DNA of 58,320 nt, from positions 1 through 58,320 of IMG/VR virus record IMGVR_UViG_3300033149_003373; one strand, 5' to 3'. Source of the stretch: a virus (taxonomy: Duplodnaviria > Caudoviricetes). Below the pieces are notes generated by a model. It was not told the origin of the DNA, did not search any database, and saw only the letters and a program-made list of their open reading frames with translations. This document shows positions 10,118 to 58,280 of the stretch, piece by piece; the first letter of the stretch is position 1; every line of letters starts with the position of its first letter. A program made the position numbers and the translations under genes.

Positions 10118-11032
10118 ATGGAATATAAAGAAACAAGTGATATAAATAGCATTAAGGGTAGAGAATCGGCTTGTGATAGTGAACACTCTAAATCTTTATA
10201 TAAAATAAAGAAAATGGTTAATGAAAATATAGAAAAGAAATTTACAAAATTAGAAGATTATTTGAAAGTATTAAGAACATCTAAAAAGATTAACTCCTTA
10301 TTTATTGTAAGTAAAGCAGGATATGGCAAAACGACCTATGTTATATATTTTCTAATGAAAGCAGGTCTAAAACCAAATAAAGATTTTGTATTAATAAATA
10401 CTCACACATCTCCTTTATCATTATATTCAACACTAATGAATAATTCTGAAAAAGTTCTTATTTTTGACGATATGCCTAAACTATTCAGAGATGAAATGTC
10501 TAAAAATCTATTCTTATCAGCTTTATGGTCTCCAACAGATAAAAGAATAGTTAATTGGAATTCTATAATAACTATGAAAAATATGGATTTACCTAAGAAA
10601 TTTATATTTAATGGAAAAGTAATAGCTTTGCTTAATAAGATACCAAAAGATATGGAAGCAATAATGTCAAGATGTATGACTTATGAAATGAATATACCAA
10701 GAAAACAAATAATAGAATTAATACAGGAGATAAGTAAAGTATCAAATATACCAGAAGAAGTAGTTAAATTTATAAAAAATAATACAGACTTATCACATGA
10801 ATTAAGCATAAGAACTTTAATTAAAACATTTGAAATATATAAAACATCAGATAATTGGAAAGAAATAGCATTAGAACAATTAGAATCATCTAATGAAATA
10901 AGAGTAATAATGAAATATATAAATCTGTCTGTAAAAGAACAGATACAAAAGTTTGCAGAAGAAACAGGATTAAAACGTGCTTCTTATTACCTTTACCGAG
11001 CAGAATTAAGAAAACGAGAAAAAGGATTATGA
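10118..11032 (+). CDS. AAA+ ATPase with SRC motif and C-terminal HTH-like segment
   Basis: Walker A SKAGYGKT, Walker B LIFDD, sensor LLN, MSRC, SIRTL; ends FAEETGLKRASYYLY. Confidence 0.8.
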   Translation: MEYKETSDINSIKGRESACDSEHSKSLYKIKKMVNENIEKKFTKLEDYLKVLRTSKKINSLFIVSKAGYGKTTYVIYFLMKAGLKPNKDFVLINTHTSPLSLYSTLMNNSEKVLIFDDMPKLFRDEMSKNLFLSALWSPTDKRIVNWNSIITMKNMDLPKKFIFNGKVIALLNKIPKDMEAIMSRCMTYEMNIPRKQIIELIQEISKVSNIPEEVVKFIKNNTDLSHELSIRTLIKTFEIYKTSDNWKEIALEQLESSNEIRVIMKYINLSVKEQIQKFAEETGLKRASYYLYRAELRKREKGL

Positions 11033-11084: not shown

Positions 11085-11117
11085 TCTTTTATTTAAACTT
11101 TACATTTAAATAAAAGA
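11085..11117. terminator. 13-bp inverted repeat between convergent genes
   Basis: TCTTTTATTTAAA-N7-TTTAAATAAAAGA; function inferred from position only. Confidence 0.4.
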
Positions 11118-11161: not shown

Positions 11162-11437
11162 TTATGTTTTGAAAATACGAGAACCATTCATTCCTCTTTG
11201 ATTTTTAAATTTTATATTATCTACCTCTTTAGACACCTTTCCCATCCATTTTAAGGCAGTTACTCTTGAAATATCATATCTCATTTCTACTTCTCTTGTA
11301 GTAATAATTGTTTTTTTATCATTTATAAAATCATTTTTAAATTGCTCATATTTTTCAGAGAACTTAAACCCCCTATTTAAATTCTTTAATTCTTTTAAAA
11401 TATCTTCAAGAAGGTGTATTATCTTTTCATCACTCAT
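11162..11437 (-). CDS. Winged-helix DNA-binding protein
   Basis: ITTREVEMRYDISRVTALKWM HTH followed by a beta-wing. Confidence 0.7.
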   Translation of the reverse strand: MSDEKIIHLLEDILKELKNLNRGFKFSEKYEQFKNDFINDKKTIITTREVEMRYDISRVTALKWMGKVSKEVDNIKFKNQRGMNGSRIFKT

Positions 11438-11627
11438 CTTTCATCTCCCTCACTAGCTTAATAACATCTATATCCACAAGCAATAATCCATGTTGTTTGC
11501 TGTTTATAACTGCTGTATTGTCTTTTAATTCTTCTAAAATTCCAACACTAAATAAATCTTTTCCATTTTCAATTCTAGAGAAACCAATTTTCTTATTAAC
11601 TAATCTTTCTAATAATTCTTTATTCAT
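11430..11627 (-). CDS. Sm/LSm-fold-like small protein
   Basis: LERLVNKKI...GILEELKDNTAVI...LLVDIDVIKLV pattern; 65 aa. Confidence 0.5.
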   Translation of the reverse strand: MNKELLERLVNKKIGFSRIENGKDLFSVGILEELKDNTAVINSKQHGLLLVDIDVIKLVREMKDE

Positions 11628-12348: not shown

Positions 12349-12609
12349 ATGACTGAATTAAAAACAATGAAGGATTTTAAAGAAGGATTTGACGAATTAG
12401 ACAGATTACAAACAACAAACAAGGCACATGCTGATTATTTGTTCAGAGAAATCAGACAAGAAGCTATCAAACAAATAAAAGATTTATTTGAAAAAAATAA
12501 AACAGCAAAAACAATGCAAGATAGACAAGAAGCAATATGGAATGAAGCAGTAATAAGATGGATTAAACACTTTTTTAACATAAAAGATGAAGAGGTTTCT
12601 AATGACTGA
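12349..12609 (+). CDS. ELKT.KD...FFNI family hypothetical protein, copy 1
   Basis: Shares start, middle (QEAIK) and end (HFFNI.DEE) with the next gene. Confidence 0.75.
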   Translation: MTELKTMKDFKEGFDELDRLQTTNKAHADYLFREIRQEAIKQIKDLFEKNKTAKTMQDRQEAIWNEAVIRWIKHFFNIKDEEVSND

Positions 12610-12898
12610 AGAATTGAAAACTTTGAAGGATATTGAAATAGAATTAAAATTTACAGGTAAAGAAGTTAAAGAATTAGGAATTACGTTTTCAGATATGAAA
12701 AAAATGGATTATATAATGGGACAAAGAGATAATCAAATTAAAGAAGAAGTTATTAAATTAATTAAAAATGAAGTATTTTGGGATGAAGAACAAATGCCAA
12801 GAGAAATAAAAAATACAATGGAAGATTGTTCACCATGTCAAGTTGCAGAAGACGTATTAAAGTGGTTTTTCAACATTACAGAAGAGGAATTGAAATGA
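12602..12898 (+). CDS. ELKT.KD...FFNI family hypothetical protein, copy 2
   Basis: MTEELKTLKD...KEEVIKLIK...WFFNITEEELK. Confidence 0.75.
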   Translation: MTEELKTLKDIEIELKFTGKEVKELGITFSDMKKMDYIMGQRDNQIKEEVIKLIKNEVFWDEEQMPREIKNTMEDCSPCQVAEDVLKWFFNITEEELK

Positions 12899-13695: not shown

Positions 13696-13833
13696 CTGAA
13701 ATTTAAGTTAGGAAAGGATGAAATATATAGATGTGAAAAGTGTAATTGTTGGATAACAACTAAGAAAGTGTTTGAAAAGCATGGAAAACATAAAATTAAA
13801 AAATACAATTTAAAAGATATAAATAAAAGGTGA
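13696..13833 (+). CDS. Small Zn-finger protein, probable CTG start
   Basis: GGTGA-N5-CTG; in-frame TAA immediately upstream; CEKC...H..H. Confidence 0.5.
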   Translation: MKFKLGKDEIYRCEKCNCWITTKKVFEKHGKHKIKKYNLKDINKR

Positions 13834-13837
13834 TTAG

Positions 13838-14176
13838 ATGGAAGATAAAAAAATAAATGAATTTGAGGAAGCTAAAGCAGAAGAAGGCGATTGGAAAGAA
13901 GCAACAGGAGACGGAGGAGGATTCTGGTTTCCTGAAAAAGATGGAGAAACTCTGGTAGGAGAACTGAAGGCAATAAAAGAAGGAAAGTATGGAGATATAT
14001 ATGATGTATATATTTCAGAAACTAAGAAAATAATGACAGTTCCTACTTCAAAATACCTTCAAATGAGAATACATAAGGACAATATTGGAATGGAAATAAA
14101 GATATTGTTTGAAGGATGGGGAGAAGCAGAAGGAGGTAAAAACGCTCCTAGAAAGTTTAAAGTTTGGTTCAAGTAA
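13838..14176 (+). CDS. Putative OB-fold ssDNA-binding protein
   Basis: GFWFPEKDGETLVGEL..IKEGKYG...EIKILFEG...FKVWF; aromatic beta-rich pattern; followed by a T-rich tract. Confidence 0.5.
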   Translation: MEDKKINEFEEAKAEEGDWKEATGDGGGFWFPEKDGETLVGELKAIKEGKYGDIYDVYISETKKIMTVPTSKYLQMRIHKDNIGMEIKILFEGWGEAEGGKNAPRKFKVWFK

Positions 14177-37916: not shown

Positions 37917-40088
37917 TTATTCATCTGAAACTACCATTCTAGCGATTGCATCAGCATGTATTGCAGATGATGCATATGCCATAGACAATTTCATTCGGAC
38001 TTGGTCAGTTGATGGGAAGTCAAATACAGTTATCTGAGGTTTCAAGCCAAAGACTTGAGCACTGCAAACTCCTGCTTTTACCATTCCACAAAGATGTCCT
38101 GTGACATCCATTGTTACATTGCTTCCAGCAACATCAATATATGTATTTGTTGTTGCGTCAAATCCAGGAACCTTAGTTGTGCTTACAACTTTTACGTCAA
38201 GGTATTTGCCAATTTCTCCGTTCAGAACTACTTCATTACTTCCGTATTCTGCTGCGTTTGTAAATTGTGTTTCGTTCTGAAGTGCTTCTTCCTGCTCTGG
38301 TGCCATGAAGAAGACGAATGGCTCTCCTGGTGTTGGTTCCCATGCATTCTTTGCTGTTCCAGACAGTGTCCATGTGTTTGAGTTCCAGTAATAACCTCTT
38401 GTTGACATCAAAAGTCTTCTTGCTTTCTTGAACATCTCTGTTGTTAGGATGTCTCCTGAGTCAAGGCTACTGTTTGCATTTGTTGCATCTCCACCAAATA
38501 TTGTTTGTGCACCTCTTACAGTGTTTGTCATTGCTGTAGGTTCGGTGGCTGTTCCAGACGTTGCTGTTCCAAGAACTGCATCTCTTATGTTTGAATCTAT
38601 TGAGTTTTCGTGTTTGTATGCTAATTCTTCTCTCATATACTGGATTTGGTTAAGGGCACTTGTTCTTATTGCATGGTTGGATATTGCAATACCATAGTTC
38701 AGTCTTGTTGGAGTTATTTTCTTGCCGTCTGCTGTATCTGGGTCTGTCCAATCTATCTCGCTTCCAGCAGCAAATTCTGCTGTTGAAGATTCCCAGCTTG
38801 AGTCATCCAGATATGTTGTCCTATAAGGAACTACTATTTCGTTATTTCCAGTAGGAATTGTATACTGAGTGGCTACTTGTGCAAATCTCATCCTTTCTTT
38901 TGCTGCATCAATTGCCTTTCTTAGGAATTGAATTGGCTGTAATGGATAAGTTGCTGCAGAAAACTGAGTACCTCTTACAGTTGATGTTGTAGTTGCTGTA
39001 GCAGATAGTTCAAAGTTTCTTAGTCCGAGTGGGTTTGTCTTAGGTTGCATACTGAGTTCAAGAACAATAGGAGAACTAAGTCCTCCGCCTTGTAGATACT
39101 CTAACATTCCAACATCTACATCTTCATATCCTGTTGCATTTACTTTTGTTGGAGGAGTTGCTTCTGGATTCATGGAAACTTTGTTTCCTTTTTCTCTTGC
39201 AGCAAGTTTTTGTTCTACAATTTTCTCGATATTTTTCTCATTCTGCATTAGATTCCACGCCTTAAGAACTTCTTTGAATGAAGCATCTGGGTGTGCCTTT
39301 AAGAAGGAATTAGCAAAAGAAGAATAATCAGAACTTAACATGCCGTTTTCTTCAAACTTTTTTATCATTTCAGCGTGTTTTATTCTATTTTCTTCTGCAT
39401 CGTAATCTCTTTTAGATTTGCTGCTAACAACTTCAACTTTAGGTTGAAGTGCCTCTTTAGTTTCCTCAGTTTTTGGTTCCTCAGCCTTTGGTTCTTCAGG
39501 TTTTGGTTCTGGCTTTGGTTCCTCTTTTGGTTCTTCAGGTGTGGTTTCTGGTGTTTCGCTAGGCTGTTCGTCTAATTTTTCTGTGTTCATTATATCACCT
39601 ATATTTTGCCTAAGTATGAAAAAAGTGTTTGGAATTAAATCTACTCCTTTTTGTACTTTTGATGAATTTAGAAATGTTGTCTGACATGCTGGTTCAACAA
39701 CAAGAGACCAATTTTCAATACTAAAATTCTTTACACTTCCATTACTTCCTTTTCCAAGTATCTTCGGGCTTATTCCAAATTTTGCTCCAAGAAGAAGTGC
39801 TTTTTGTGCTTCTGAATTTGAAATTAATAAATCACCAATAATTGAATTTTCATCTAAACGAGGATTTTCTACTTTTCCTATGAAGTTTTTAGCTAATGTA
39901 TCCTGATGGTCAAAATAAAGATACCTTGTTTTTTCATTATCCCAGTCAGTTCTTTTGAAAGCTTCTGAAAGTTCATAATCATCATAAAACCAATCATTCC
40001 ATACTCCGCTTGACATTATTGGATGATTCTTTATTTTAAGAACTTGAATTCCATTTATATTTTCCAAACTAAATTTTCTATTATTCAT
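37917..40088 (-). CDS. Prohead protease - scaffold - major capsid protein fusion (HK97 fold)
   Basis: N-term SSGVWN, LYFDH, FGISP, WSLVVEPAC (protease-like); PEEPK-rich linker; C-term FFMAPEQ...LNGEIGKYLDVKVV capsid motif. Confidence 0.85.
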   Translation of the reverse strand: MNNRKFSLENINGIQVLKIKNHPIMSSGVWNDWFYDDYELSEAFKRTDWDNEKTRYLYFDHQDTLAKNFIGKVENPRLDENSIIGDLLISNSEAQKALLLGAKFGISPKILGKGSNGSVKNFSIENWSLVVEPACQTTFLNSSKVQKGVDLIPNTFFILRQNIGDIMNTEKLDEQPSETPETTPEEPKEEPKPEPKPEEPKAEEPKTEETKEALQPKVEVVSSKSKRDYDAEENRIKHAEMIKKFEENGMLSSDYSSFANSFLKAHPDASFKEVLKAWNLMQNEKNIEKIVEQKLAAREKGNKVSMNPEATPPTKVNATGYEDVDVGMLEYLQGGGLSSPIVLELSMQPKTNPLGLRNFELSATATTTSTVRGTQFSAATYPLQPIQFLRKAIDAAKERMRFAQVATQYTIPTGNNEIVVPYRTTYLDDSSWESSTAEFAAGSEIDWTDPDTADGKKITPTRLNYGIAISNHAIRTSALNQIQYMREELAYKHENSIDSNIRDAVLGTATSGTATEPTAMTNTVRGAQTIFGGDATNANSSLDSGDILTTEMFKKARRLLMSTRGYYWNSNTWTLSGTAKNAWEPTPGEPFVFFMAPEQEEALQNETQFTNAAEYGSNEVVLNGEIGKYLDVKVVSTTKVPGFDATTNTYIDVAGSNVTMDVTGHLCGMVKAGVCSAQVFGLKPQITVFDFPSTDQVRMKLSMAYASSAIHADAIARMVVSDE

Positions 40089-45267: not shown

Positions 45268-45987
45268 TTAATCACCCACATAATTTGCATTATAAACAAC
45301 AAATTTGCTTCTTCCTCCTGGAATTACTTTATTATTTATTTTATTTTTCAAATCTTCAGTATCTGTATTTAAATCTCCAGTTTCAAAATCATAGAAAATT
45401 AATTTTCCGCTTAATATGAATTCTTCTGAATCAGATATTTTCGATGCAGATTCTATTATATGAGGAAACATTTCTGAAATATTATTGTCTTTATGCATAA
45501 GCTTTATGAAATTCTTGGATTTTAATAAAAATGTTTCAATACCTTCATAATTTGGCTGTATAGAATATAACATATTATCACTAAATTCTGACATAACTCT
45601 TTCAAGTCTGCTTAATGTCTTTTTTTGCTCATTTATAATTTCTATTTTATTTTTAAAGTCATCACCTTCAAGAGTTTTCCATCTATTTATAGTCTCGAAT
45701 TTCTTTATCCATTGATAAGGATATTCAAATAAAGAAGTTGTATCCATTTCTGCTATTTCGTCTTCAGTGCATAAATGGAGATTCTTCCTATGATTAAATT
45801 CTTTAAAAGATAATTTTCTAGGAGGAAGAATCCTTAATGTGCCATAACACCATTCATTATCAATTAGATAGAGTTCTTTATTTACTTTATCAGACAAATC
45901 TTCATCTAATACCATAAGTGGCTGGTTTCCAAGAAACATCAATTTTGCATGATTTCCTGGAATTAGCAATGCATTATTTTTTATCAT
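45268..45987 (-). CDS. ASCH-like N-domain + degenerate ATP-dependent DNA ligase adenylation-domain N-part
   Basis: IQPNYEG (motif I KxDG position), ISEMFPHII, FILSGKL (motif III LDGE), FVVYNANY (motif IIIa FD). Confidence 0.55.
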   Translation of the reverse strand: MIKNNALLIPGNHAKLMFLGNQPLMVLDEDLSDKVNKELYLIDNEWCYGTLRILPPRKLSFKEFNHRKNLHLCTEDEIAEMDTTSLFEYPYQWIKKFETINRWKTLEGDDFKNKIEIINEQKKTLSRLERVMSEFSDNMLYSIQPNYEGIETFLLKSKNFIKLMHKDNNISEMFPHIIESASKISDSEEFILSGKLIFYDFETGDLNTDTEDLKNKINNKVIPGGRSKFVVYNANYVGD

Positions 45988-47368
45988 TTCTTTTTCCTTT
46001 GTCTGGTTTTTCATTTCCGCCTGGTTCTTTTTTGTCTTTTTCTGTTTCATCATCATCACCAATTTCTTTATTTTGTAAAGGTTTAATCCATAGACCTTTT
46101 CTTTTTGGTAAATTTTCAGTCTTTCTTATCCATTCATCTAAATCTTCAGATGGGTGAAGAAGACCAAATCTTGCATATTTTGAAATTCTTTCTGATTTTG
46201 AATCTAACTCTTGTAAAGCAATTTCATTGAATACAATTTTAGGAGGAATTAATTTTTTACCACTAGAATTTTTATTTTCAAGTTCTGCTATTCTTTCAAA
46301 TATTTTAGTTTCTATAACTCTTGATACTCCTGACATCATTTCTTTTAATGTAAGCTTTAGGAAATATTCTTGTTTTGAAAGAGTGTCTCTGTTTACTTCT
46401 CCGCCTGCTCCTGTTGCAAATGCTGAAGGAATTCCTAATCCAGTTATTTCCATATCAACCCAATAATCAAGAAATGTTCTCAAATCCTTGCTTATTTTTG
46501 GTTCTAAAAATGTGATTTTATCGTGATATTTATGTGAAAACGAGCTTCGTGCATTCATTTCTTTTAGCTCTTCTACACCTTTTTTTAACTGTTCTTCTGT
46601 TGGTTGATGCGTCTCATCTCCCATTGATACAACTGGAACAGGATTTCCAATTCTATAAGAAGCAAGAGCAAAACCTTCTTCACTTGATTTGTGCCTGATA
46701 TATGTATTATAAATAGGTTCTACAATTCCAAGTGGGAAAAAACCACTTGAATCAGAATACATCTTGAATAGAGCTATTCTTTCTGCTGGAATATATATCT
46801 GTGTTCCTAAAAGATGAACACCTTCTGGAGGTTCTATTTTTTGTTCAAGAGAAAACATATTGATAAGAGTTTGTGTATATCCTATTGGATTCTGGCTTGA
46901 ATCAAGAGCGATATTCATAGTTGAACTTCTTGCATAATCAAAAGTTTTTGCATCTATAGTATCTAAATCAACTATTTTGTTTCCATCTTTATTATGAATA
47001 AGTTCTACTGGCTGGATTCCAAACATAAAAAGAAATTTGAATATATTTTTTCTGACTTCTTCCCATGTTCTTTCTCCACCTTTTCTTCCAATATTTTCTA
47101 AAAAGTCAGTAAAAAACTTTACAGAATATTCATCTCCTTTTAATGTATAATCAACACTCATAAGAAGTTGCACCAGCTTATTTACTGAATTGAAAATTAA
47201 AGGAGATTCCATATAAACTCCTTCAAGATTTTGTCTTGGAACCCTCGAGAGAAATGGAGTTTCTCTTTTAGAAATAGGGTCTGGATTCTCAGTAGAATAT
47301 ATAGGACTTTTTAATTCAAACGTTTTCTTTGGGAAGAAAATATTGCCTAATCTAGACGTTATTGACAT
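45974..47368 (-). CDS. Portal protein
   Basis: 464 aa directly after TerL; FMFGIQPVEL, PLGIVEP, GLGIPSAF, DEWIRKTENLP patterns. Confidence 0.85.
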   Translation of the reverse strand: MSITSRLGNIFFPKKTFELKSPIYSTENPDPISKRETPFLSRVPRQNLEGVYMESPLIFNSVNKLVQLLMSVDYTLKGDEYSVKFFTDFLENIGRKGGERTWEEVRKNIFKFLFMFGIQPVELIHNKDGNKIVDLDTIDAKTFDYARSSTMNIALDSSQNPIGYTQTLINMFSLEQKIEPPEGVHLLGTQIYIPAERIALFKMYSDSSGFFPLGIVEPIYNTYIRHKSSEEGFALASYRIGNPVPVVSMGDETHQPTEEQLKKGVEELKEMNARSSFSHKYHDKITFLEPKISKDLRTFLDYWVDMEITGLGIPSAFATGAGGEVNRDTLSKQEYFLKLTLKEMMSGVSRVIETKIFERIAELENKNSSGKKLIPPKIVFNEIALQELDSKSERISKYARFGLLHPSEDLDEWIRKTENLPKRKGLWIKPLQNKEIGDDDETEKDKKEPGGNEKPDKGKRNDKK

Positions 47369-47399: not shown

Positions 47400-48839
47400 T
47401 CACGTATAGAACACTTTTCCAGTATATCCCTTATTTACGGTTGCTCCATTAAGTGCCATTCCCAAACTGAAAATCATGTCATCATGTGAAGCATTACATA
47501 CAAATGTTTCAAGACCTGTCATTGTTTTCTTAGGAACTATTGATGTTAATTCAACAAATAACTGGTCTGTAAGTATTGTGCAATTGCTGTTAGGTTTTCT
47601 TGGAATTATAATAGTTGGAACTCTTTTTCCATCAAGCATTTTTCCTTCAAATATTCTTCTTAAATTTAATAACAATCCACGCCTTGAAGTATGGTCAAAT
47701 TTCTGTCCAACTACAGGAACCTGATTCTGTCTCAATTCCTGAACAACATCTACTCCATAATTTGTTTCATCAAGCCTCATGGCAACTGGTTTGAAAATAT
47801 TATTCAATTCTAACAGCCGTTTTTTCTGGGCTGATATTGGCATTCCTTTATGACGTTCTATATGCTTTATATAAAACTTATCTCCATTACTTTCAATAAC
47901 TGTAATTACAAAATAGTCTGCATCTTTTCCACTGCTTACTGCAAAATCTACTCCAATATATACATTTTCTCCTTCACTATTGTAGCTGAATTCAAGGTCT
48001 TCATCCCATGCATCTATAACCATTTCAGGAGTAATTAGTGCATCTTCTGAACTATGCGTATTACATAAATATTCTCGGTCAAACGCAAGTGAACCTATAG
48101 ATTCTTTTATTTGTTTTAACTTTTCTATAGGATATAATTCTGGAAATATAGCTTTTCCTTTAAATATATCATCTGGCGGTGCATTTATTATTGCAGGATA
48201 TACTTTTGTAACAAACAATGGATTTGACTTTAATTTCATGGATAAATCTGCTCCATGAACTACTGTAGTAATCCCAACTAATTTCCCTTTTTTAGCAGTT
48301 ACTCTTGTCATAACATATCTTTCAAAAACTGTTCCCTGAGCAAGATTGTCTTTGTATTTAGCCACTTCATCTGAAATTAAATAATCAACATGAAAAGATG
48401 CAATATTTTCATTATATGGTTTTGAGAAAACTTTACATTTATTTGAAAGCACCAGTTCAGTCTTGCTCCATGTTGTATCGCTTTTATTTTTAGGTTCTAG
48501 GAATTGAAGAAATTCATTATCTTCAATTAAATTTCTAATCCTTTCAAGTATTCCTTTTGCTTGTGGCTCTGTTTTTGAAACAACTAAGATTTCTTTTTTT
48601 CTATTATAGAAACAAATCCATAAAGGAAACCATATACCCAAAATTAAAGTTTTCCCGTGTCCTGTAGGAGCTATAATCATAGTTCTTTCATTTTTTCTAG
48701 CCATCTCTATCCATTCTATATGGAACGGTTTTATTATTTCTCCAGACATTCTTTCTATCCAGAATGCTGGGTCTCTGCTTCCTGTTATACTAAATGTTTC
48801 AAAATTCATGTCTCCTAGAATATCTTTTGCAGTTCTCAT
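47400..48839 (-). CDS. terL: Terminase large subunit
   Basis: Walker A APTGHGKT, Walker B LISDEV, FDREYLC, RNase H-like IGVDFA and HDDMIFS. Confidence 0.95.
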   Translation of the reverse strand: MRTAKDILGDMNFETFSITGSRDPAFWIERMSGEIIKPFHIEWIEMARKNERTMIIAPTGHGKTLILGIWFPLWICFYNRKKEILVVSKTEPQAKGILERIRNLIEDNEFLQFLEPKNKSDTTWSKTELVLSNKCKVFSKPYNENIASFHVDYLISDEVAKYKDNLAQGTVFERYVMTRVTAKKGKLVGITTVVHGADLSMKLKSNPLFVTKVYPAIINAPPDDIFKGKAIFPELYPIEKLKQIKESIGSLAFDREYLCNTHSSEDALITPEMVIDAWDEDLEFSYNSEGENVYIGVDFAVSSGKDADYFVITVIESNGDKFYIKHIERHKGMPISAQKKRLLELNNIFKPVAMRLDETNYGVDVVQELRQNQVPVVGQKFDHTSRRGLLLNLRRIFEGKMLDGKRVPTIIIPRKPNSNCTILTDQLFVELTSIVPKKTMTGLETFVCNASHDDMIFSLGMALNGATVNKGYTGKVFYT

Positions 48840-53890: not shown

Positions 53891-53986
53891 ATAAATCACG
53901 AAATATATTTTACGAATTCAATCTTAAAATGAAGATATGTATAAATATCATTCACGTTAAGATTGCAATACTCTTTTTGTTTGTGT

Positions 53987-54080
53987 ATGATGGAAGAAGA
54001 ACAGGTTTCAAGTCCGAGGGGAATTGACCTGTTTCTTCTATTACGCTATATCTTAGTTCAATAAGATTAACAACCATCAT
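53987..54080 (-). ncRNA. Candidate structured leader RNA (three-way junction)
   Basis: 7-bp closing stem ATGATGG/CCATCAT enclosing two hairpins; begins about 21 nt from a TATA box. Confidence 0.4.
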
Positions 54081-54100
54081 TATTATATATACTTTCCTAG

Positions 54101-54113
54101 TATATAAAGCTTT
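54101..54113 (-). promoter_or_regulatory. Archaeal BRE/TATA-like promoter for the leftward arm
   Basis: AAAGCTTTATATA on the minus strand, same as 49604-49616. Confidence 0.55.
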
Positions 54114-54269
54114 TATTTAAATAATATGGGGAAGTTTCAAGAAACCGCCAGGTGTCTTATGTTATGTAATAAGTGTAAGAGTAAAGTATTTTATAGTAAA
54201 GAAGGCAACTGGTTAGTTTATTCCTGTTCTAAGTGCGGGTATAGAAGGTCAGTATTAATTTAAAAGATG

Positions 54270-55330
54270 TTTTAACTATAGTTATCTGGAGCTTATATTT
54301 ATAAAAACTCCGAATATCTGGAGTTTATGTTATCATATATAATTATATAGATAGGTTTCCTTTAGATATTAAGAGATAGAAAACTATAATGTAGAATTTT
54401 TAAACAGTCTTAATGTATACCTTTAGAGATAAGTGAATGGTTTTTAAATAAAGAAGTAATGAGACTGAATTTCTATGATGTGGTGTGTAGTCGATGTATA
54501 TAAATTAAGTAATAAGACTATATTGAAAAACTATAGAGTAATGGGTAATCGGTGCCTTATGTACTTTTCCAATATCTATTTTCGTGAATAGCTTTTCTAT
54601 AAGATATATCATAGAATATACACATAGAATATATATAATACATATCATATCTCTTTCTCCTTTGTGGTGATAGAAACTATGTATATGTTTTATATAATTT
54701 ATATGTTATATTGTTTATCTATGTATGTATAGTATATACTCTATTATATATATTATATAAGAGTATATAACAATGTGATAAAAGTCTAAAAGTCTAATGG
54801 TTTTCTGTTTGTGTCTCTCTCTATATATTTATATTGTATAATATAGCATAGGTATTGTATAACAGTATGTATAGTAAGCATAGTAGTATAACAATGTTAT
54901 AATTGTTGTAACACAGTATCTATATCTTTTTTATATGGTATATACAATTACTCTTATGACACTACAAGAACTAGAACAATATTGTATAGACAATAACTAT
55001 AATGTAAGTATCAAAAGATATGCTTCATGTGATGCAATAATGATACAACAGGAATAATTTTTTTTGTATATGGATATAACAATGTTATACTTATATATCA
55101 CATAACATATAATACAATACCATAGAATAACTATATACCACTATGCTTAATAACCATAATAACTCTATATATTCTCTTTATATACTTTTCCTATGTATAT
55201 GTCTTATATGAGAATGATAGAGTTGTGTGATGTATATGATAACAACACAGATAACAACAACATAAAATCACACATACAAAACAATCATAACACTATAATC
55301 AATACGTATATACGATATACTGATTATAGA
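54270..55330. other. AT-rich non-coding region between divergent arms (candidate origin/packaging/control region)
   Basis: No ORF of 60 aa or more; TA-dinucleotide-rich; repeated palindromes. Confidence 0.55.
54766..55089. repeat. Three copies of 15-bp palindrome TATAACA-A-TGTTATA
   Basis: Perfect at 54887-54901 and 55075-55089; one mismatch at 54766-54780. Confidence 0.8.
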
Positions 55331-55433
55331 ACATAGGAGATAAATATGATAATAAAACTATGCAATAGTAATGACATCTATATAAAAAACACTAATAAAA
55401 AACACTTAATAATAGCTTATGATGGTGAATAAT

Positions 55434-55604
55434 ATGCTAACTGTAAATGATGTAACTAAATATAATCATAAAACTAATAAACGTATAATTACTAAAACAC
55501 TTTATATTGGTAATGTATTTTATTCTTCAAAAGGTATAGAAATAAGTAATATCAGATATGAAAAACTTAGTGAATTAATAAGAGAAGGAAAATTAACCAT
55601 TTGA
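55434..55604 (+). CDS. Small hypothetical protein, paralog of 57367..57549
   Basis: Shared VND...TN.RI...YS.KGI.IS..RYE...EL...G.L. Confidence 0.7.
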   Translation: MLTVNDVTKYNHKTNKRIITKTLYIGNVFYSSKGIEISNIRYEKLSELIREGKLTI

Positions 55605-55858
55605 AAATAAAGTGAAATATCTTATAAAAACATGAAAAAGTATCAATATAATTAACTATAAAGCCTATTCTATCCGGATAATTCACACTATGTTAAAACA
55701 CCAAATAAACACACTATAAACACTATTATAAACACTGTAATTAGAAATGGATAATATGCTTGTAATGGCCATTAGAATCATTTACTAATAAAAAGATTAA
55801 TTACCCTATAGATAAAAAGATAAAACCTACTAATAAAATGATTTAGGTATAAAAACCT

Positions 55859-56039
55859 TTTATATAAAAGCTATGGAATAGATTGCACAATACCCTATAA
55901 TTAATATATATAATATGTATAGCTACTGTATAGTAAAGACATAAACACTCTATAATATCATATATATCCTGTTATATGTTTTACTTAAGCTGTTACTTTA
56001 TGATTATCGTTTATATAAAAGCTATGTTATCTTTATATA
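55859..56039 (+). promoter_or_regulatory. Early promoter region: 17-bp direct repeat plus TATA box
   Basis: TTTATATAAAAGCTATG at 55859-55875 and 56010-56026; TTTATATA at 56032-56039. Confidence 0.5.
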
Positions 56040-56398
56040 CCCCATAAGTTAATTAATAATACCTTATGGTGAGATAAGAAAAATCTCATCAGGTAAACGC
56101 AATAAAAACACACATAAGACTTATACGATATATGTATTAATTTCATGGGATAACAGATATAAGTTATTTGGTCGCTATGCTAAAAGATAACTTGTAAATG
56201 ATGGTAAACCCACATATACACGATATTTCTTGTCTAAATAAAGACGATATTGCAAAAACAGGAAAAACATTAAAACTAAATAAATAATAGGCATAGATGT
56301 TATTTGTTTCTAAACTTTGTTATTAATCTTATATAAATTGTATGATAAGATAACCTTCAAAAGTTGTTTTATCACTCTTTTTCTATTTATCAGGTAAT

Positions 56399-56469
56399 AA
56401 AGGCATAAGCGAGGATTGATAATATACATTTTGTATATTATGGGAGTTCGGTTCTCCCTGCCCTTTCCA
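56399..56469 (+). ncRNA. tRNA-like element ending in CCA (non-canonical D and anticodon arms)
   Basis: AAAGGCA/TGCCCTT acceptor (6/7 pairs), T-arm GGGAG-TTCGGTT-CTCCC, discriminator T + CCA, 9-bp ATAATATAC/GTATATTAT stem. Confidence 0.55.
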
Positions 56470-56493
56470 TTTATAAATTAAAAGGTGATTAAT

Positions 56494-58280
56494 ATGAAAG
56501 AAATAAAAATGTGGTCTAAAACTTGTCAGAAAGCTTATGATGAGTATAGAAAACAAAGAGATGAAGAATAATGAAATGGGAAGAATTTAAGAAGAAAATG
56601 GATAAAGCAGACACTTTAGGAGATGCAGATAAACTTATAAGAAAATTAACAAAAGAACAGAAAAAAGATTTAATAAAAACATATAAGAAAATGAAAGAAA
56701 TGTCTGGTCTAACTATGCGAGATGTCTATGTTTTATCTTCAACAGAAACAGAATTAAAAATCCAAAAACTGAAAGAGTAATTTTATTTTTATTTTATATT
56801 ATATTTATAGTGATTATTCTTAATTAATGGTGATAATATGAAAGATATATGTTCAAATTGTGGAAATCCATACAATCATATAAAACATTATGTTGAGTGT
56901 TGTAATCAAATAAAAGATAATATAAAACCTATGTTTGATAATAATGGATTATTAAAGTGATAAATATGGAATTAACAAATAAACAAAAGACACATTATGA
57001 AAATTGCCCTTATGTTGAAACTTGTGAATTATGTAAATGGATAACAAAACAATTAAACTTAGGAAAAGAAATGGATGAAATTAAAATATAGTGATTATAT
57101 GAATTCTATAAACTGTTTAAAATGTAACATAAAAATGACATTTATGCCTAAGAATGATATAATCTATTGTAAATCATGTAATTATAGGATGAGGTTTTAA
57201 TTATGAGTAAAAACACGATAGAAGATTTATTAGAAACACTTGAATCTAAAACAGAAAAACAAGAATATCTTAAAAAAATGTATTTAACAACACTTCGTTC
57301 TCTTTTAATTGATGCTAATAATAGATTTGAGAAATTAAATAAATCATGTAATTATTCGGTGAGAATATGAAACAAGTAAATGATATAAGAGAAGTAGTTT
57401 ATACAAATAGAAGAATAGTAAAACCTTTAATGATAAACCATTCTGGTGGCGTTACTATACTTTATTCTCAAAAAGGAATTAAAATAAGTGAAGAAAGATA
57501 CGAAACAATGCAGGAATTGGTCTTAAAAGGCAGACTTTTTAAATTATAAGGTGATAAAATGATAACAAAAGAAGAATTCTTATATAATACTAAAGATGAT
57601 GAAGTCTTTTGTTTAATACATGAAGCTCTGTCAAGACTAAATGAACTTTATGCAGAAGAAGATAAAAAACCAATTACTATTTTAGATAAGGATATAAAAG
57701 TTATTTCTGAACAAATGATTACAAATATAAAAAGTCAGGTCTGGTTATAATGAATAAATTTTATTTTAATCTTTCAACAAAAGAGAAAAAGAAATTTAGA
57801 GAAATTGTAAATGATTTAATTAAAAACAGGAAAGCACAAAGAGATATATATAATAAAAATATAATTAAATGCCTTAATGACACTATTAAACGAATGGAAG
57901 AAGTTAAACAAAGTAAATATCCATTAAGTCATATTCAGAAAGTAAATGATTCATGTTCAAAATATATAAGCAATTTTGTTAGAGGTGATTAAATGATAAG
58001 ATTAGAGAATTTAGGAACAGTAAACAGAAATAAAGTTATTATTGGAAACTTAACCTTATGGTTTAGTTATGAAACAATAGTAGCTTTTCAAGATGAAACA
58101 GGTTTAAAATGCAGTGAAAATATATGGAGTAGAACAACAGGAAAATTATTAAACATGATATGCGATAAAAATGAAAGAATACCAAATAAAGATTTTGAAA
58201 GAGAATTAAGACTATGTTTAATAAGACATAATTTTTATTTGGAAAAAGTTGTTGAAGAACTTCAAGAAATAGAAGCTTAA
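56494..58280 (+). other. Start of the rightward early cluster of small hypothetical genes (56571..56780, 57367..57549, 57559..57750, 57750..57992, 57993..58280 and shorter ORFs)
   Basis: Contiguous ORFs with GGTGA SD; continues through the junction into position 120 onward. Confidence 0.7.

What the first reader, a model, noticed from the sequence alone, without database searches (positions are those of the whole stretch)
56399..56469. tRNA mimic with intact acceptor/T-arm/CCA but remodelled anticodon arm, heading the early operon
Seen: 71 nt with acceptor stem (one A-C mismatch), U8-A9, a short GG-containing D region without a clear stem, a 9-bp stem with 5-nt loop replacing the anticodon arm, a perfect 5-bp T stem with TTCGGTT loop, and encoded CCA 24 nt before the first early ATG. 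Established: RNase P, RNase Z and CCA enzyme recognise the acceptor/T-arm half. Inference: not a decoding tRNA but a processing signal for the early transcript or a decoy for anticodon nucleases or tRNA-sensing defences.
Basis: partly seen in the sequence, partly recalled or inferred. Interest (0 to 1): 0.7.

Follow-up and report, generated by a model that had tools for sequence, protein, structure and literature searches.

The report
Unconserved tRNA look-alike in viral leader
A 71-base stretch just ahead of the first early gene of an uncultured, probably archaeal, tailed virus can fold like the top half of a tRNA but cannot decode; it may be a cut-here tag for tRNA-trimming enzymes, yet no relatives or RNA data confirm it.

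Summary
The described features are all present at 56399-56469: a 7-bp acceptor stem with one A·C mismatch, U8-A9, an unpaired GG-containing D region, a 9/10-bp perfect hairpin, a 5-bp T stem with loop TTCGGTT, and U-CCA 24 nt before the ATG at 56494.

It is not a tRNA by any standard test. ARAGORN at default finds nothing, and Rfam tRNA gives no match at E<=10. It lacks U33, R37, A58 and a D stem. The minimum-energy fold is a rod, not a cloverleaf.

The top half plus CCA is rare by chance: 13 hits in 2651 random genomes. An ARAGORN call at the 90% threshold is not rare, at about 0.5 per random genome.

No homologue of the element exists in anything I could search, so covariation cannot be tested. 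No RNA runs were listed.

The virus clade is rich in tRNAs, with arrays of 18-21, several with introns. One relative holds a second mini tRNA-like element of the same build between two tRNAs.

Best reading (0.4): a tRNA-derived, non-decoding "t-element"-like module in the early leader. Main rivals are unrelated leader or operator hairpins (0.3) and an inert tRNA relic (0.2). Interest is modest.

The parts
56329..56337 (+). TTATATAAA, a candidate archaeal TATA box. It would place a transcript start near 56357, about 40 nt before the element.
   Evidence: Read. Inference by analogy with the TATA-like motif that sits about 25 nt before the ATG of the small ORF at 54126. A sigma-70-like reading, TTGTTA-18-TATGAT at 56317-56346, is no better than shuffles.
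56371..56381 (+). AUCAC-U-CUUUU, complementary to the Shine-Dalgarno region 56480-56490 (possible anti-SD)
   Evidence: MFE fold of 56370-56500: -28.7 kcal/mol, z -2.1, 6 of 200 shuffles fold at least as well.
56399..56405 (+). Acceptor-like 5' strand AAAGGCA
   Evidence: Pairs with 56459-56465, with A·C at 3:70.
56406..56418 (+). U8, A9 and an 11-nt unpaired D-region remnant with GG
   Evidence: ARAGORN's 'D stem' has a single G·T pair.
56419..56441 (+). Perfect 10-bp A/T-rich hairpin with a 3-nt loop, in place of the anticodon arm and variable region. It is also a DNA palindrome.
   Evidence: one of only 2 perfect hairpins of at least 9 bp in the window, against a shuffle mean of 3.7. Pair probabilities at least 0.975.
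56442..56458 (+). T-arm-like hairpin GGGAG-TTCGGTT-CTCCC (G at position 58)
   Evidence: unique in the window. Ensemble pair probability is only 0.27, because 56411-56419 can pair with 56448-56456 instead.
56459..56469 (+). Acceptor-like 3' strand TGCCCTT, discriminator T, CCA
56484..56488 (+). Shine-Dalgarno GGTGA of the first early ORF
   Evidence: The same AAAAGGTGATTA leader recurs before the ORF at 13838.
56494..56571 (+). First early ORF, 25 codons. Its stop overlaps the ATG of the ORF at 56571-56780 (TAATG).

Best explanation
The 71 nt are a tRNA-derived, non-decoding tRNA-like module, a viral counterpart of a 't-element', lying in the 5' leader of the first early message of a probably archaeal tailed virus.

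Proposed mechanism; every step is inferred and none is shown:
1. The leader is transcribed from an upstream TATA-type promoter.
2. The acceptor stem and T arm stack into a 12-bp minihelix, with the GG of the D remnant touching the T loop.
3. Host RNase P cuts before 56399.
4. A 3' activity cuts or trims at or just after the discriminator/CCA.
5. This releases a small stable RNA and leaves an mRNA that starts about 24 nt before the ATG, with a free Shine-Dalgarno sequence.

The element probably descends from one of the tRNA genes that this virus clade carries in numbers. The decoding half was replaced by a plain hairpin.
For: 1. All canonical top-half features are present and contiguous. That combination with NCCA occurred 13 times in 2651 random genomes, against once here.
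2. It lies in non-coding DNA, on the strand of the gene block that begins 24 nt after the CCA.
3. It is a G+C island: 39% in a spacer of about 24%.
4. The clade is tRNA-rich. RF00005 matched above its cut-off in 3 of 5 larger relatives. Arrays of 18-21 tRNAs, several with 12-50-nt introns, occur in L086, L087, L089 and L092. All are co-oriented with neighbouring ORFs.
5. An independent second case exists. Relative G003 has, between two intron-bearing tRNAs, a 55-nt element of the same build: acceptor, short linker, 8-bp hairpin, abutting T arm GUGCG-UUCGAUU-CGCAC, then the acceptor 3' strand. Its MFE is exactly that three-way junction, with z -3.75 and 0 of 200 shuffles as stable. The strict descriptor found only these two elements, plus one true tRNA, in 786,611 nt. 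It hit twice in 400 random genomes.
6. tRNA-like elements that act as RNase P / tRNase Z signals at RNA ends are established in archaea and in plant mitochondria (passages read: PMC4326828; PMC1920247).
Against: 1. No tRNA model accepts it. ARAGORN finds it only at the 90% threshold, where random genomes give about 0.5 hits each. RF00005 gives nothing at E<=10, while relatives' tRNAs score 35-69 bits.
2. Sequence likeness to 57 distinct tRNAs of relatives is no higher than for shuffles: best score 5.0, against a shuffle mean of 2.1 and maximum of 11. Real tRNAs score at least 16.5 against each other.
3. The MFE is a rod in which 56411-56419 pairs with the T loop and 3' T stem (probability about 0.7, against 0.27 for the T arm). 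The cloverleaf is 3.9 kcal/mol worse.
4. G58 replaces the near-universal A58.
5. No homologue was found: exact 21-22-mers were absent from viral, metagenome and genome collections, blastn found nothing in relatives, and the single-sequence covariance model found nothing below E = 1 outside the window. The one virus with a homologous early gene (L056, 51% identity) has no such element.
6. None of the 8 distinct true tRNAs listed encodes CCA, so the CCA is not a clade habit.
7. The descriptor is post hoc, and the scan is very large.
Confidence: 0.4

Rival explanations
1. The element is not tRNA-related. The region is an ordinary structured leader or control region: a perfect A/T-rich palindrome (an operator for a dimeric regulator, or a TATA-like element) followed by a G+C-rich hairpin. 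The whole is closed by long-range pairing that hides the Shine-Dalgarno sequence. The acceptor-like closure and the CCA are coincidence.
For: The MFE of the 71 nt and of the 131-nt context is a rod, not a cloverleaf. In the rod, AUCAC-U-CUUUU (56371-56381) pairs with AAAAG-GUGAU (56480-56490). The 10-bp hairpin is a perfect DNA palindrome. The whole 2.5-kb spacer is full of inverted repeats, with fold z-scores of -3 to -5. No tRNA model accepts the element. It has no sequence likeness to tRNAs. ARAGORN-level resemblance is expected by chance.
Against: Top half plus CCA occurred only 13 times in 2651 random genomes. The palindrome is not repeated elsewhere in the window: the only other match needed 3 mismatches and lies in a coding region. 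Fold z-scores are modest, at -2.1. The alternative helix needs three G·U pairs. A relative has a clearly tRNA-associated element of the same build.
Confidence: 0.3
2. The element is an inert relic: a former viral tRNA gene (the clade carries many) that lost its D arm and anticodon loop and is decaying without any function.
For: Relatives carry 1 to 21 tRNA genes, including tRNA-Lys(UUU). Degenerate neighbours exist, for example L052 5925-5997 at 28.6 bits, just below the cut-off. This virus has no canonical tRNA. The element also has G58, A33 and the A·C mismatch.
Against: Decay should hit both halves alike. Here the acceptor, T stem and CCA are nearly intact, and the replaced half is a perfect 10-bp hairpin rather than a scrambled arm. 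There is no residual sequence likeness to relatives' tRNAs. Compact viral genomes usually delete dead DNA, which is general knowledge and was not tested here.
Confidence: 0.2
3. The element is a stand-alone tRNA mimic that acts on proteins rather than as a cut mark. It could be a decoy or sponge for anticodon nucleases, tRNA-sensing defences, the CCA-adding enzyme or a synthetase.
For: An intact minihelix with encoded CCA. The only mismatch sits at 3:70, which from memory is the position of the alanine identity pair. The G003 element sits inside a tRNA array, where no extra cut mark is needed.
Against: No anticodon loop of normal shape is offered to an anticodon nuclease. No defence or counter-defence gene was linked to it. 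No data of any kind bear on it.
Confidence: 0.05
4. The element is attP: a partial copy of a host tRNA gene used for integration, like the tRNA-like gene of halovirus HF2.
For: Precedent in an archaeal tailed virus (PMC8707807, passage read).
Against: No tyrosine or serine recombinase domain in six frames at E<=1. No exact copy of the 21-nt T-arm/acceptor stretch in one genome each of 185,579 species. The record has terminal repeats and no flanking host DNA.
Confidence: 0.03
5. The element is a working, very unusual tRNA-Lys(UUU).
For: ARAGORN's low-threshold reading. The genome is A/T-rich, so AAA codons would be common (inferred from composition; codon counts not made).
Against: A33 and U37, no D stem, a 3-nt variable region and G58. 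No RF00005 match at E<=10.
Confidence: 0.02

Closest known systems
t-elements: the tRNA-like structure upstream of 5S rRNA in Haloferax volcanii, and those of plant mitochondrial mRNAs (PMC4326828 and PMC1920247, passages read; Hölzle 2008/2012 seen only as references there)
   Same: A non-canonical tRNA-like fold with acceptor stem and T arm, embedded in a longer transcript directly before the functional RNA. In Arabidopsis a 74-nt t-element lies in the cox1 5' leader, and the mRNA 5' end is made by cleavage at its 3' side.
   Different: Those are cellular or organellar and have mapped RNA ends or in-vitro cleavage. Here the element is viral and nothing is mapped. The plant screen used the T-arm motif GGTTCRANYCC, which this element (GAGTTCGGTTC) does not meet at A58. 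The encoded CCA is unlike the Arabidopsis cases, where C/CC/CCA was added after cleavage.
Canonical tRNA genes of related viruses (RF00005; for example tRNA-Met at L053 5993-6064, and the arrays in L086, L089 and L092)
   Same: Same strand as adjacent ORFs, some directly before an ORF. 7-bp acceptor, 5-bp T stem, 7-nt TTC loop.
   Different: Those score 35-69 bits and have D arms and normal anticodon loops, some with introns. This element gives no match at E<=10.
Mini tRNA-like element of relative G003 (L054 6148-6202, identical at L012 4387-4441); found here, not a published family
   Same: Acceptor, short unpaired linker, one 8-10-bp hairpin with a 3-4-nt loop abutting the T arm with no variable region, T loop UUCGRUU, and an acceptor 3' strand abutting the T stem.
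   Different: 55 nt against 67. The linker is 4 nt against 13. It has no CCA. It lies between two tRNAs rather than before an ORF. Its MFE is the three-way junction, whereas the window element's is not. No sequence homology can be shown.
tRNA-like gene HrrHF2_450 of halovirus HF2 (attP) (PMC8707807, passage read)
   Same: A low-scoring tRNA-like gene in an archaeal tailed virus that does not fold conventionally.
   Different: HF2 has an adjacent integrase and exact matches in Halorubrum tRNA genes. Here there is no integrase and no match.
Phage P1/P7 C4 RNA and phage T4 species 1/2 RNAs. Recalled from memory; only a search listing was seen.
   Same: Small phage RNAs with tRNA-like ends, cut by RNase P out of a longer transcript. 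C4 lies at the head of the operon it controls.
   Different: Those are bacterial systems with an experimental basis. No antisense target was sought here.

Membership tests
tRNA (Rfam RF00005 / ARAGORN) | Covariance-model score at or above 29 bits, or an ARAGORN default call | tested here: not met
   0 matches at gathering score. None at E<=10 in a 501-nt search or in the whole record. ARAGORN default and -ps95 give none.
tRNA (Rfam RF00005 / ARAGORN) | D stem, 7-nt anticodon loop with U33 and purine 37, variable region of at least 4 nt | tested here: not met
   ARAGORN drawing: a single G·T pair in the 'D stem', loop CAUUUUG (A33, U37), and a 3-nt variable region.
tRNA (Rfam RF00005 / ARAGORN) | 7-bp acceptor, 5-bp T stem with G53-C61, T54-T55-C56, A58, discriminator | tested here: inconclusive
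   All are met except A58 (G here) and one A·C at 3:70.
t-element (tRNA-like processing signal) | Non-canonical tRNA-like fold with acceptor and T arm inside a longer transcript, next to a functional RNA | tested here: inconclusive
   The fold can be drawn and is rare by chance. It is not the predicted MFE, and the T arm has probability 0.27.
t-element (tRNA-like processing signal) | Cleavage by RNase P and/or tRNase Z; RNA ends coincide with the element's ends | not testable with these tools
   No sequencing run was listed. The host is unknown.
attP-type tRNA-like gene | Integrase gene in the virus | tested here: not met
   PF00589 and PF00239: 0 matches at E<=1 in six frames.
attP-type tRNA-like gene | The 3' part is identical to a host tRNA gene | tested here: not met
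   The exact 21-mer is absent from genome contigs. Only exact matches in one genome per species were sought, and the host may be unsampled.
tmRNA tRNA-like domain | tmRNA gene call with tag reading frame | tested here: not met
   ARAGORN tmRNA search: none at default or at -m -ps70. No RF00023 match.
mascRNA-type tRNA-like small RNA (RF01684) | Match to the family model | tested here: not met
   Not among the 10 matches at E<=10 over 56200-56700.

The most novel reading that the evidence does not exclude
This clade of A/T-rich, probably archaeal, tailed viruses maintains a class of anticodon-less, D-arm-less 'mini tRNA' RNAs built as acceptor + one plain hairpin + T arm. The window element and the G003 element are its first two members. 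They would act as stand-alone tRNA mimics towards host tRNA-handling or tRNA-targeting proteins, not merely as cut marks.
Probability: 0.12. Interest if true: 0.65.

Novelty: new member of a known kind. Interest (0 to 1): 0.3.

Why it matters
If the element is real, it would show that a virus of archaea borrows the host's tRNA-trimming enzymes to shape the 5' end of its first early message, or to make a small tRNA-shaped RNA. That trick is documented for cellular 5S rRNA in Haloferax and for plant mitochondrial mRNAs. My two searches on viral and archaeal tRNA-like RNAs (listings and a few passages only) did not show it for an archaeal virus leader.

With one unconserved copy and no RNA data it stays a hypothesis. 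Earlier notes of this scan list better-supported cases of the same kind in other viruses, so this copy adds little on its own.

Tried and rejected
- **Exact-match scans.** The T-arm/acceptor 21-22-mer gave 0 matches in viral contigs, metagenome contigs and genome contigs.
- **blastn of 55800-57200 against 50,697 phage records.** No match.
- **Sequencing runs.** None was listed and no RNA holder was listed.
- **TerL as a single query in viral contigs.** No relative found. The TerL alignment then gave 16 relatives at 32-51% identity among 48 loci, 43 loci from metagenomes and 1 from genomes.
- **Early-region synteny.** None of these relatives has early genes homologous to those around the element, so positional homology could not be set up.
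- **Neighbouring proteins as queries.** The 95-aa ORF gave one locus, L056, without the element. The 161-aa ORF gave nothing.
- **Single-sequence covariance model R1.** It found only the element itself and its own reverse strand. The hits in L017 (14.2 bits, E 2.2, inside an apparent coding region), L005 (11.9 bits) and G003 (11.8 bits) are noise.
- **Two-sequence model.** MAFFT could not align the window and G003 elements in register, so none was built.
- **Relaxed mini-tRNA descriptor.** Uninformative, at 0.44 hits per random genome.
- **Other mini elements in tRNA-array gaps of relatives.** Only the G003 element turned up, plus one probable undetected tRNA.
- **Pfam and PHROGs on neighbouring ORFs.** Nothing bearing on the element. 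One batch failed on a wrong coordinate and was not repeated.
- **tRNAscan-SE.** Not available here.
- **Supplementary files of papers.** Not consulted.

Full report
**What the window is.** The window is a complete IMG/VR virus record of 58,320 nt. It has an exact 114-nt terminal repeat and about 28% G+C.
- The structural and late genes lie on the - strand from about 19.5 to 53.9 kb: large terminase at 47400-48839, portal at 45974-47368, and a 723-aa protease-capsid fusion at 37917-40088.
- A long run of small ORFs on the + strand begins at 56494 and continues over the record's end to about 19 kb.
- Between the two blocks lies a 2.5-kb A/T-rich spacer (53.9-56.4 kb). It has only two small + strand ORFs and many inverted repeats.

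**Likely host domain.** The capsid protein matches a single record among 50,697 phage and virus records: an Altiarchaeum virus, at 27% identity and E 5e-8. Relatives found through the terminase carry tRNA genes with 12-77-nt introns in the anticodon loop. I therefore take the clade to infect archaea. This is an inference; the host is unknown.

**The observation.**
- acceptor AAAGGCA / TGCCCTT with one A·C mismatch at position 3:70;
- U8-A9;
- 11 unpaired bases with GG;
- a perfect 10-bp hairpin (9 bp with a 5-nt loop if the innermost pair is opened);
- T arm GGGAG-TTCGGTT-CTCCC;
- discriminator U and CCA;
- 24 nt, then the ATG.

ARAGORN draws the same cloverleaf with the same ends, as tRNA-Lys(UUU), but only when its threshold is lowered to 90%.

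**Is it more than chance?** Three tests give different answers.
- *ARAGORN score: not significant.* At the 90% threshold, random genomes of the same size and composition gave 20 hits in 40 and 331 hits in 600. The window itself has a second such hit inside a coding region.
- *Covariance model: nothing.* Rfam's tRNA model gave no match at E<=10 in the whole record, while it matched in 14 of 14 control genomes. It also gave nothing in a 501-nt search around the element. True tRNAs of related viruses score 35-69 bits.
- *Top-half descriptor: rare.* The descriptor uses only textbook top-half features: a T arm with G53, TTC and C61; an abutting 7-bp acceptor with at most one mismatch; U8; and NCCA. 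It hit once in the window and 13 times in 2651 random genomes. Without the CCA requirement it hit 985 times in 2651.

So the top half with CCA is roughly a 1-in-200 event per genome, and it falls in the small non-coding fraction, directly before a gene. I wrote the descriptor after seeing the element, and the scan is very large. The figure therefore argues against pure chance without excluding it.

**Folding.**
- The minimum-energy structure of the 71 nt is not a cloverleaf. Bases 56411-56419 pair with the T loop and the 3' half of the T stem (nine pairs, three of them G·U; probability about 0.7). The T arm has probability 0.27.
- The cloverleaf costs 3.9 kcal/mol more: -15.2 against -19.1 kcal/mol.
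- In a 131-nt context the flanks also pair, and the Shine-Dalgarno sequence GGUGAU is covered by AUCAC at 56371-56375.
- Both folds have a z-score of only -2.1. Unmodified A/U-rich tRNAs often misfold in such predictions (general knowledge), so this weakens the tRNA-like reading but does not remove it.

**Relatives.**
- The nearest terminase among 26 homologues has 55% identity, on a 2-kb contig. There are no close relatives.
- Sixteen viral contigs at 32-51% identity and 43 metagenome contigs share the structural module. They share none of the small early ORFs around the element.
- None has a sequence match to the element, and none gives a match below E = 1 to a covariance model built from it.
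- The one contig with a homologue of an early ORF (L056, 51% identity) has a similar A/T-rich divergent spacer but no such element.

**What the relatives do show.** The clade is rich in tRNA genes.
- There is a tRNA-Met at a local divergent point directly before an ORF (L053). There are two intron-bearing tRNAs in G003, and two in G005, one of them degenerate at 28.6 bits.
- Arrays of 18-21 tRNAs lie next to the terminase gene in L086, L087, L089 and L092.
- This virus has none.
- The element has no sequence likeness to 57 distinct tRNAs of relatives beyond what shuffles give.
- None of the 8 distinct true tRNAs listed encodes CCA. One in L089 does.

**A second element of the same build.** Between the two tRNAs of G003 lies a 55-nt element: L054 6148-6202, identical in a second record at L012 4387-4441.
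- Its parts, in order, are a 7-bp acceptor (lengthened to 11 bp by leader and trailer), a 4-nt linker, an 8-bp hairpin with a 4-nt loop, an abutting T arm GUGCG-UUCGAUU-CGCAC, and an abutting acceptor strand.
- Its minimum-energy fold is exactly this junction: -22.4 kcal/mol, z -3.75, with 0 of 200 shuffles as stable.
- A strict descriptor for this architecture found only the window element, the G003 element and one true tRNA in 786,611 nt. It hit twice in 400 random genomes.
- Its place inside a tRNA cluster makes a tRNA origin hard to doubt.
- This shows that anticodon-less, D-arm-less tRNA derivatives exist in the clade, and it raises my odds that the window element is one. It is not evidence of homology between the two.

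**Alternatives tested.**
- *Integration site (attP).* This is the accepted reading of the tRNA-like gene of halovirus HF2 (PMC8707807, passage). It is unlikely here. There is no tyrosine or serine recombinase, no matching tRNA in one genome per species, and the record has terminal repeats and no host DNA.
- *tmRNA or mascRNA-type RNA.* No match.
- *Operator or promoter.* The 10-bp palindrome is one of only two perfect hairpins of at least 9 bp in the genome and is not repeated elsewhere. This reading cannot be excluded.
- *Promoter-like motif in the spacer.* TTATATAAAAGCTATG occurs twice, at 55860 and 56011. A variant sits about 25 nt before the ATG of a small zinc-ribbon ORF at 54126. A similar TTATATAAA at 56329 would start a transcript about 40 nt before the element. 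This is inference.

**Known analogues.**
- In Haloferax volcanii a tRNA-like 't-element' directly upstream of 5S rRNA is cut by tRNase Z to make the 5S 5' end. t-elements in general are substrates of RNase P and tRNase Z (PMC4326828, passages).
- In Arabidopsis mitochondria, 74 nt of the cox1 5' leader fold into a t-element, and the mRNA 5' end is made at its 3' side (PMC1920247, abstract and passages).
- These are the closest known systems in function.
- Earlier notes of this scan list several anticodon-less tRNA look-alikes in other archaeal viruses and phage leaders, some said to be conserved with compensatory changes. I treat them as leads only. They pointed me to the t-element papers, which I then read.

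**Verdict.** The element is not a decoding tRNA.

| Reading | Odds |
|---|---|
| tRNA-derived, t-element-like module in the early leader, cut by host tRNA-processing enzymes | 0.4 |
| Unrelated leader or operator structure whose tRNA likeness is coincidence | 0.3 |
| Functionless tRNA relic | 0.2 |
| Protein-directed mimic or decoy | 0.05 |
| attP | 0.03 |
| Working tRNA | 0.02 |

With one unconserved copy, failure of every tRNA model, a competing fold and no RNA data, the finding is of modest interest.

Noticed in passing
L054 6148-6202 (= G003:C1:51647-51701; identical at L012 4387-4441): A 55-nt mini tRNA-like element between two intron-bearing tRNAs of a related virus. It has an acceptor stem, a 4-nt linker, an 8-bp hairpin, an abutting T arm with loop UUCGAUU, and no D arm or usable anticodon loop. 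Its MFE is the three-way junction: z -3.75, 0 of 200 shuffles as stable.
   Followed up: partly
window 53900-56400: A 2.5-kb A/T-rich spacer between the divergent late and early blocks. It has dense inverted repeats and short tandem repeats. A promoter-like palindromic motif, TTATATAAAAGCTATG, occurs at 55860 and 56011. A variant at 54101 sits about 25 nt before the ATG of a 45-aa CxxC...CxxC ORF (54126-54263), suggesting archaeal-type leaderless transcripts. The two downstream copies have no ORF behind them, so they may drive non-coding RNAs or a long leader.
   Followed up: partly
L086 1465-4469, L087, L089 12490-16032, L092 663-3450: Related viruses (terminase about 38% identical) carry arrays of 18-21 tRNA genes next to the terminase gene. 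Several have 12-50-nt introns. This window's virus has no canonical tRNA.
   Followed up: partly
window 56371-56381 and 56480-56490: An upstream AUCAC-U-CUUUU can pair with the Shine-Dalgarno region AAAAG-GUGAU of the first early ORF. This would close the whole element into a rod and could sequester the ribosome-binding site.
   Followed up: partly
window 56401 / 56463: The only acceptor-stem mismatch (A·C) falls at tRNA position 3:70. From memory, that is the position of the G·U alanine identity pair, and a protonated A·C wobble has a similar shape. Not tested.
   Followed up: no
window 37917-40088 (-): The 723-aa capsid protein looks like a fusion of a prohead protease-like N-terminal part with the major capsid protein. 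Its only match among phage records covers both a peptidase S77 gene and the capsid gene of an Altiarchaeum virus. Relative L003 has a 789-aa fused form, while L004 and L005 have separate 388-aa capsid genes.
   Followed up: no
proteins P0004, P0007 (terminase homologues, about 800 aa): Two terminase homologues of related viruses carry intein-type domains (Hint, LAGLIDADG, intein splicing) according to the precomputed Pfam list.
   Followed up: no
window 11085-11117: A perfect 13-bp hairpin with a 7-nt loop just after the + strand ORF 10118-11032, ahead of a small - strand cassette (11162-11627). It may be a bidirectional terminator-like element.
   Followed up: no
window 13818-13854: The leader and first codons of the ORF at 13838 repeat those of the first early ORF (ATAAAT-AAAAGGTGATTA-ATG) at 85% identity over 39 nt. 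It looks like a shared ribosome-binding module.
   Followed up: no
L086 about 1537-1688 and L089 about 12564-12724 (- strand): A good T arm (GCGGG-TTCAAAT-CCCGT) lies in a gap of the tRNA arrays where neither ARAGORN nor Rfam called a tRNA. It may be an undetected long-arm or intron-bearing tRNA.
   Followed up: no
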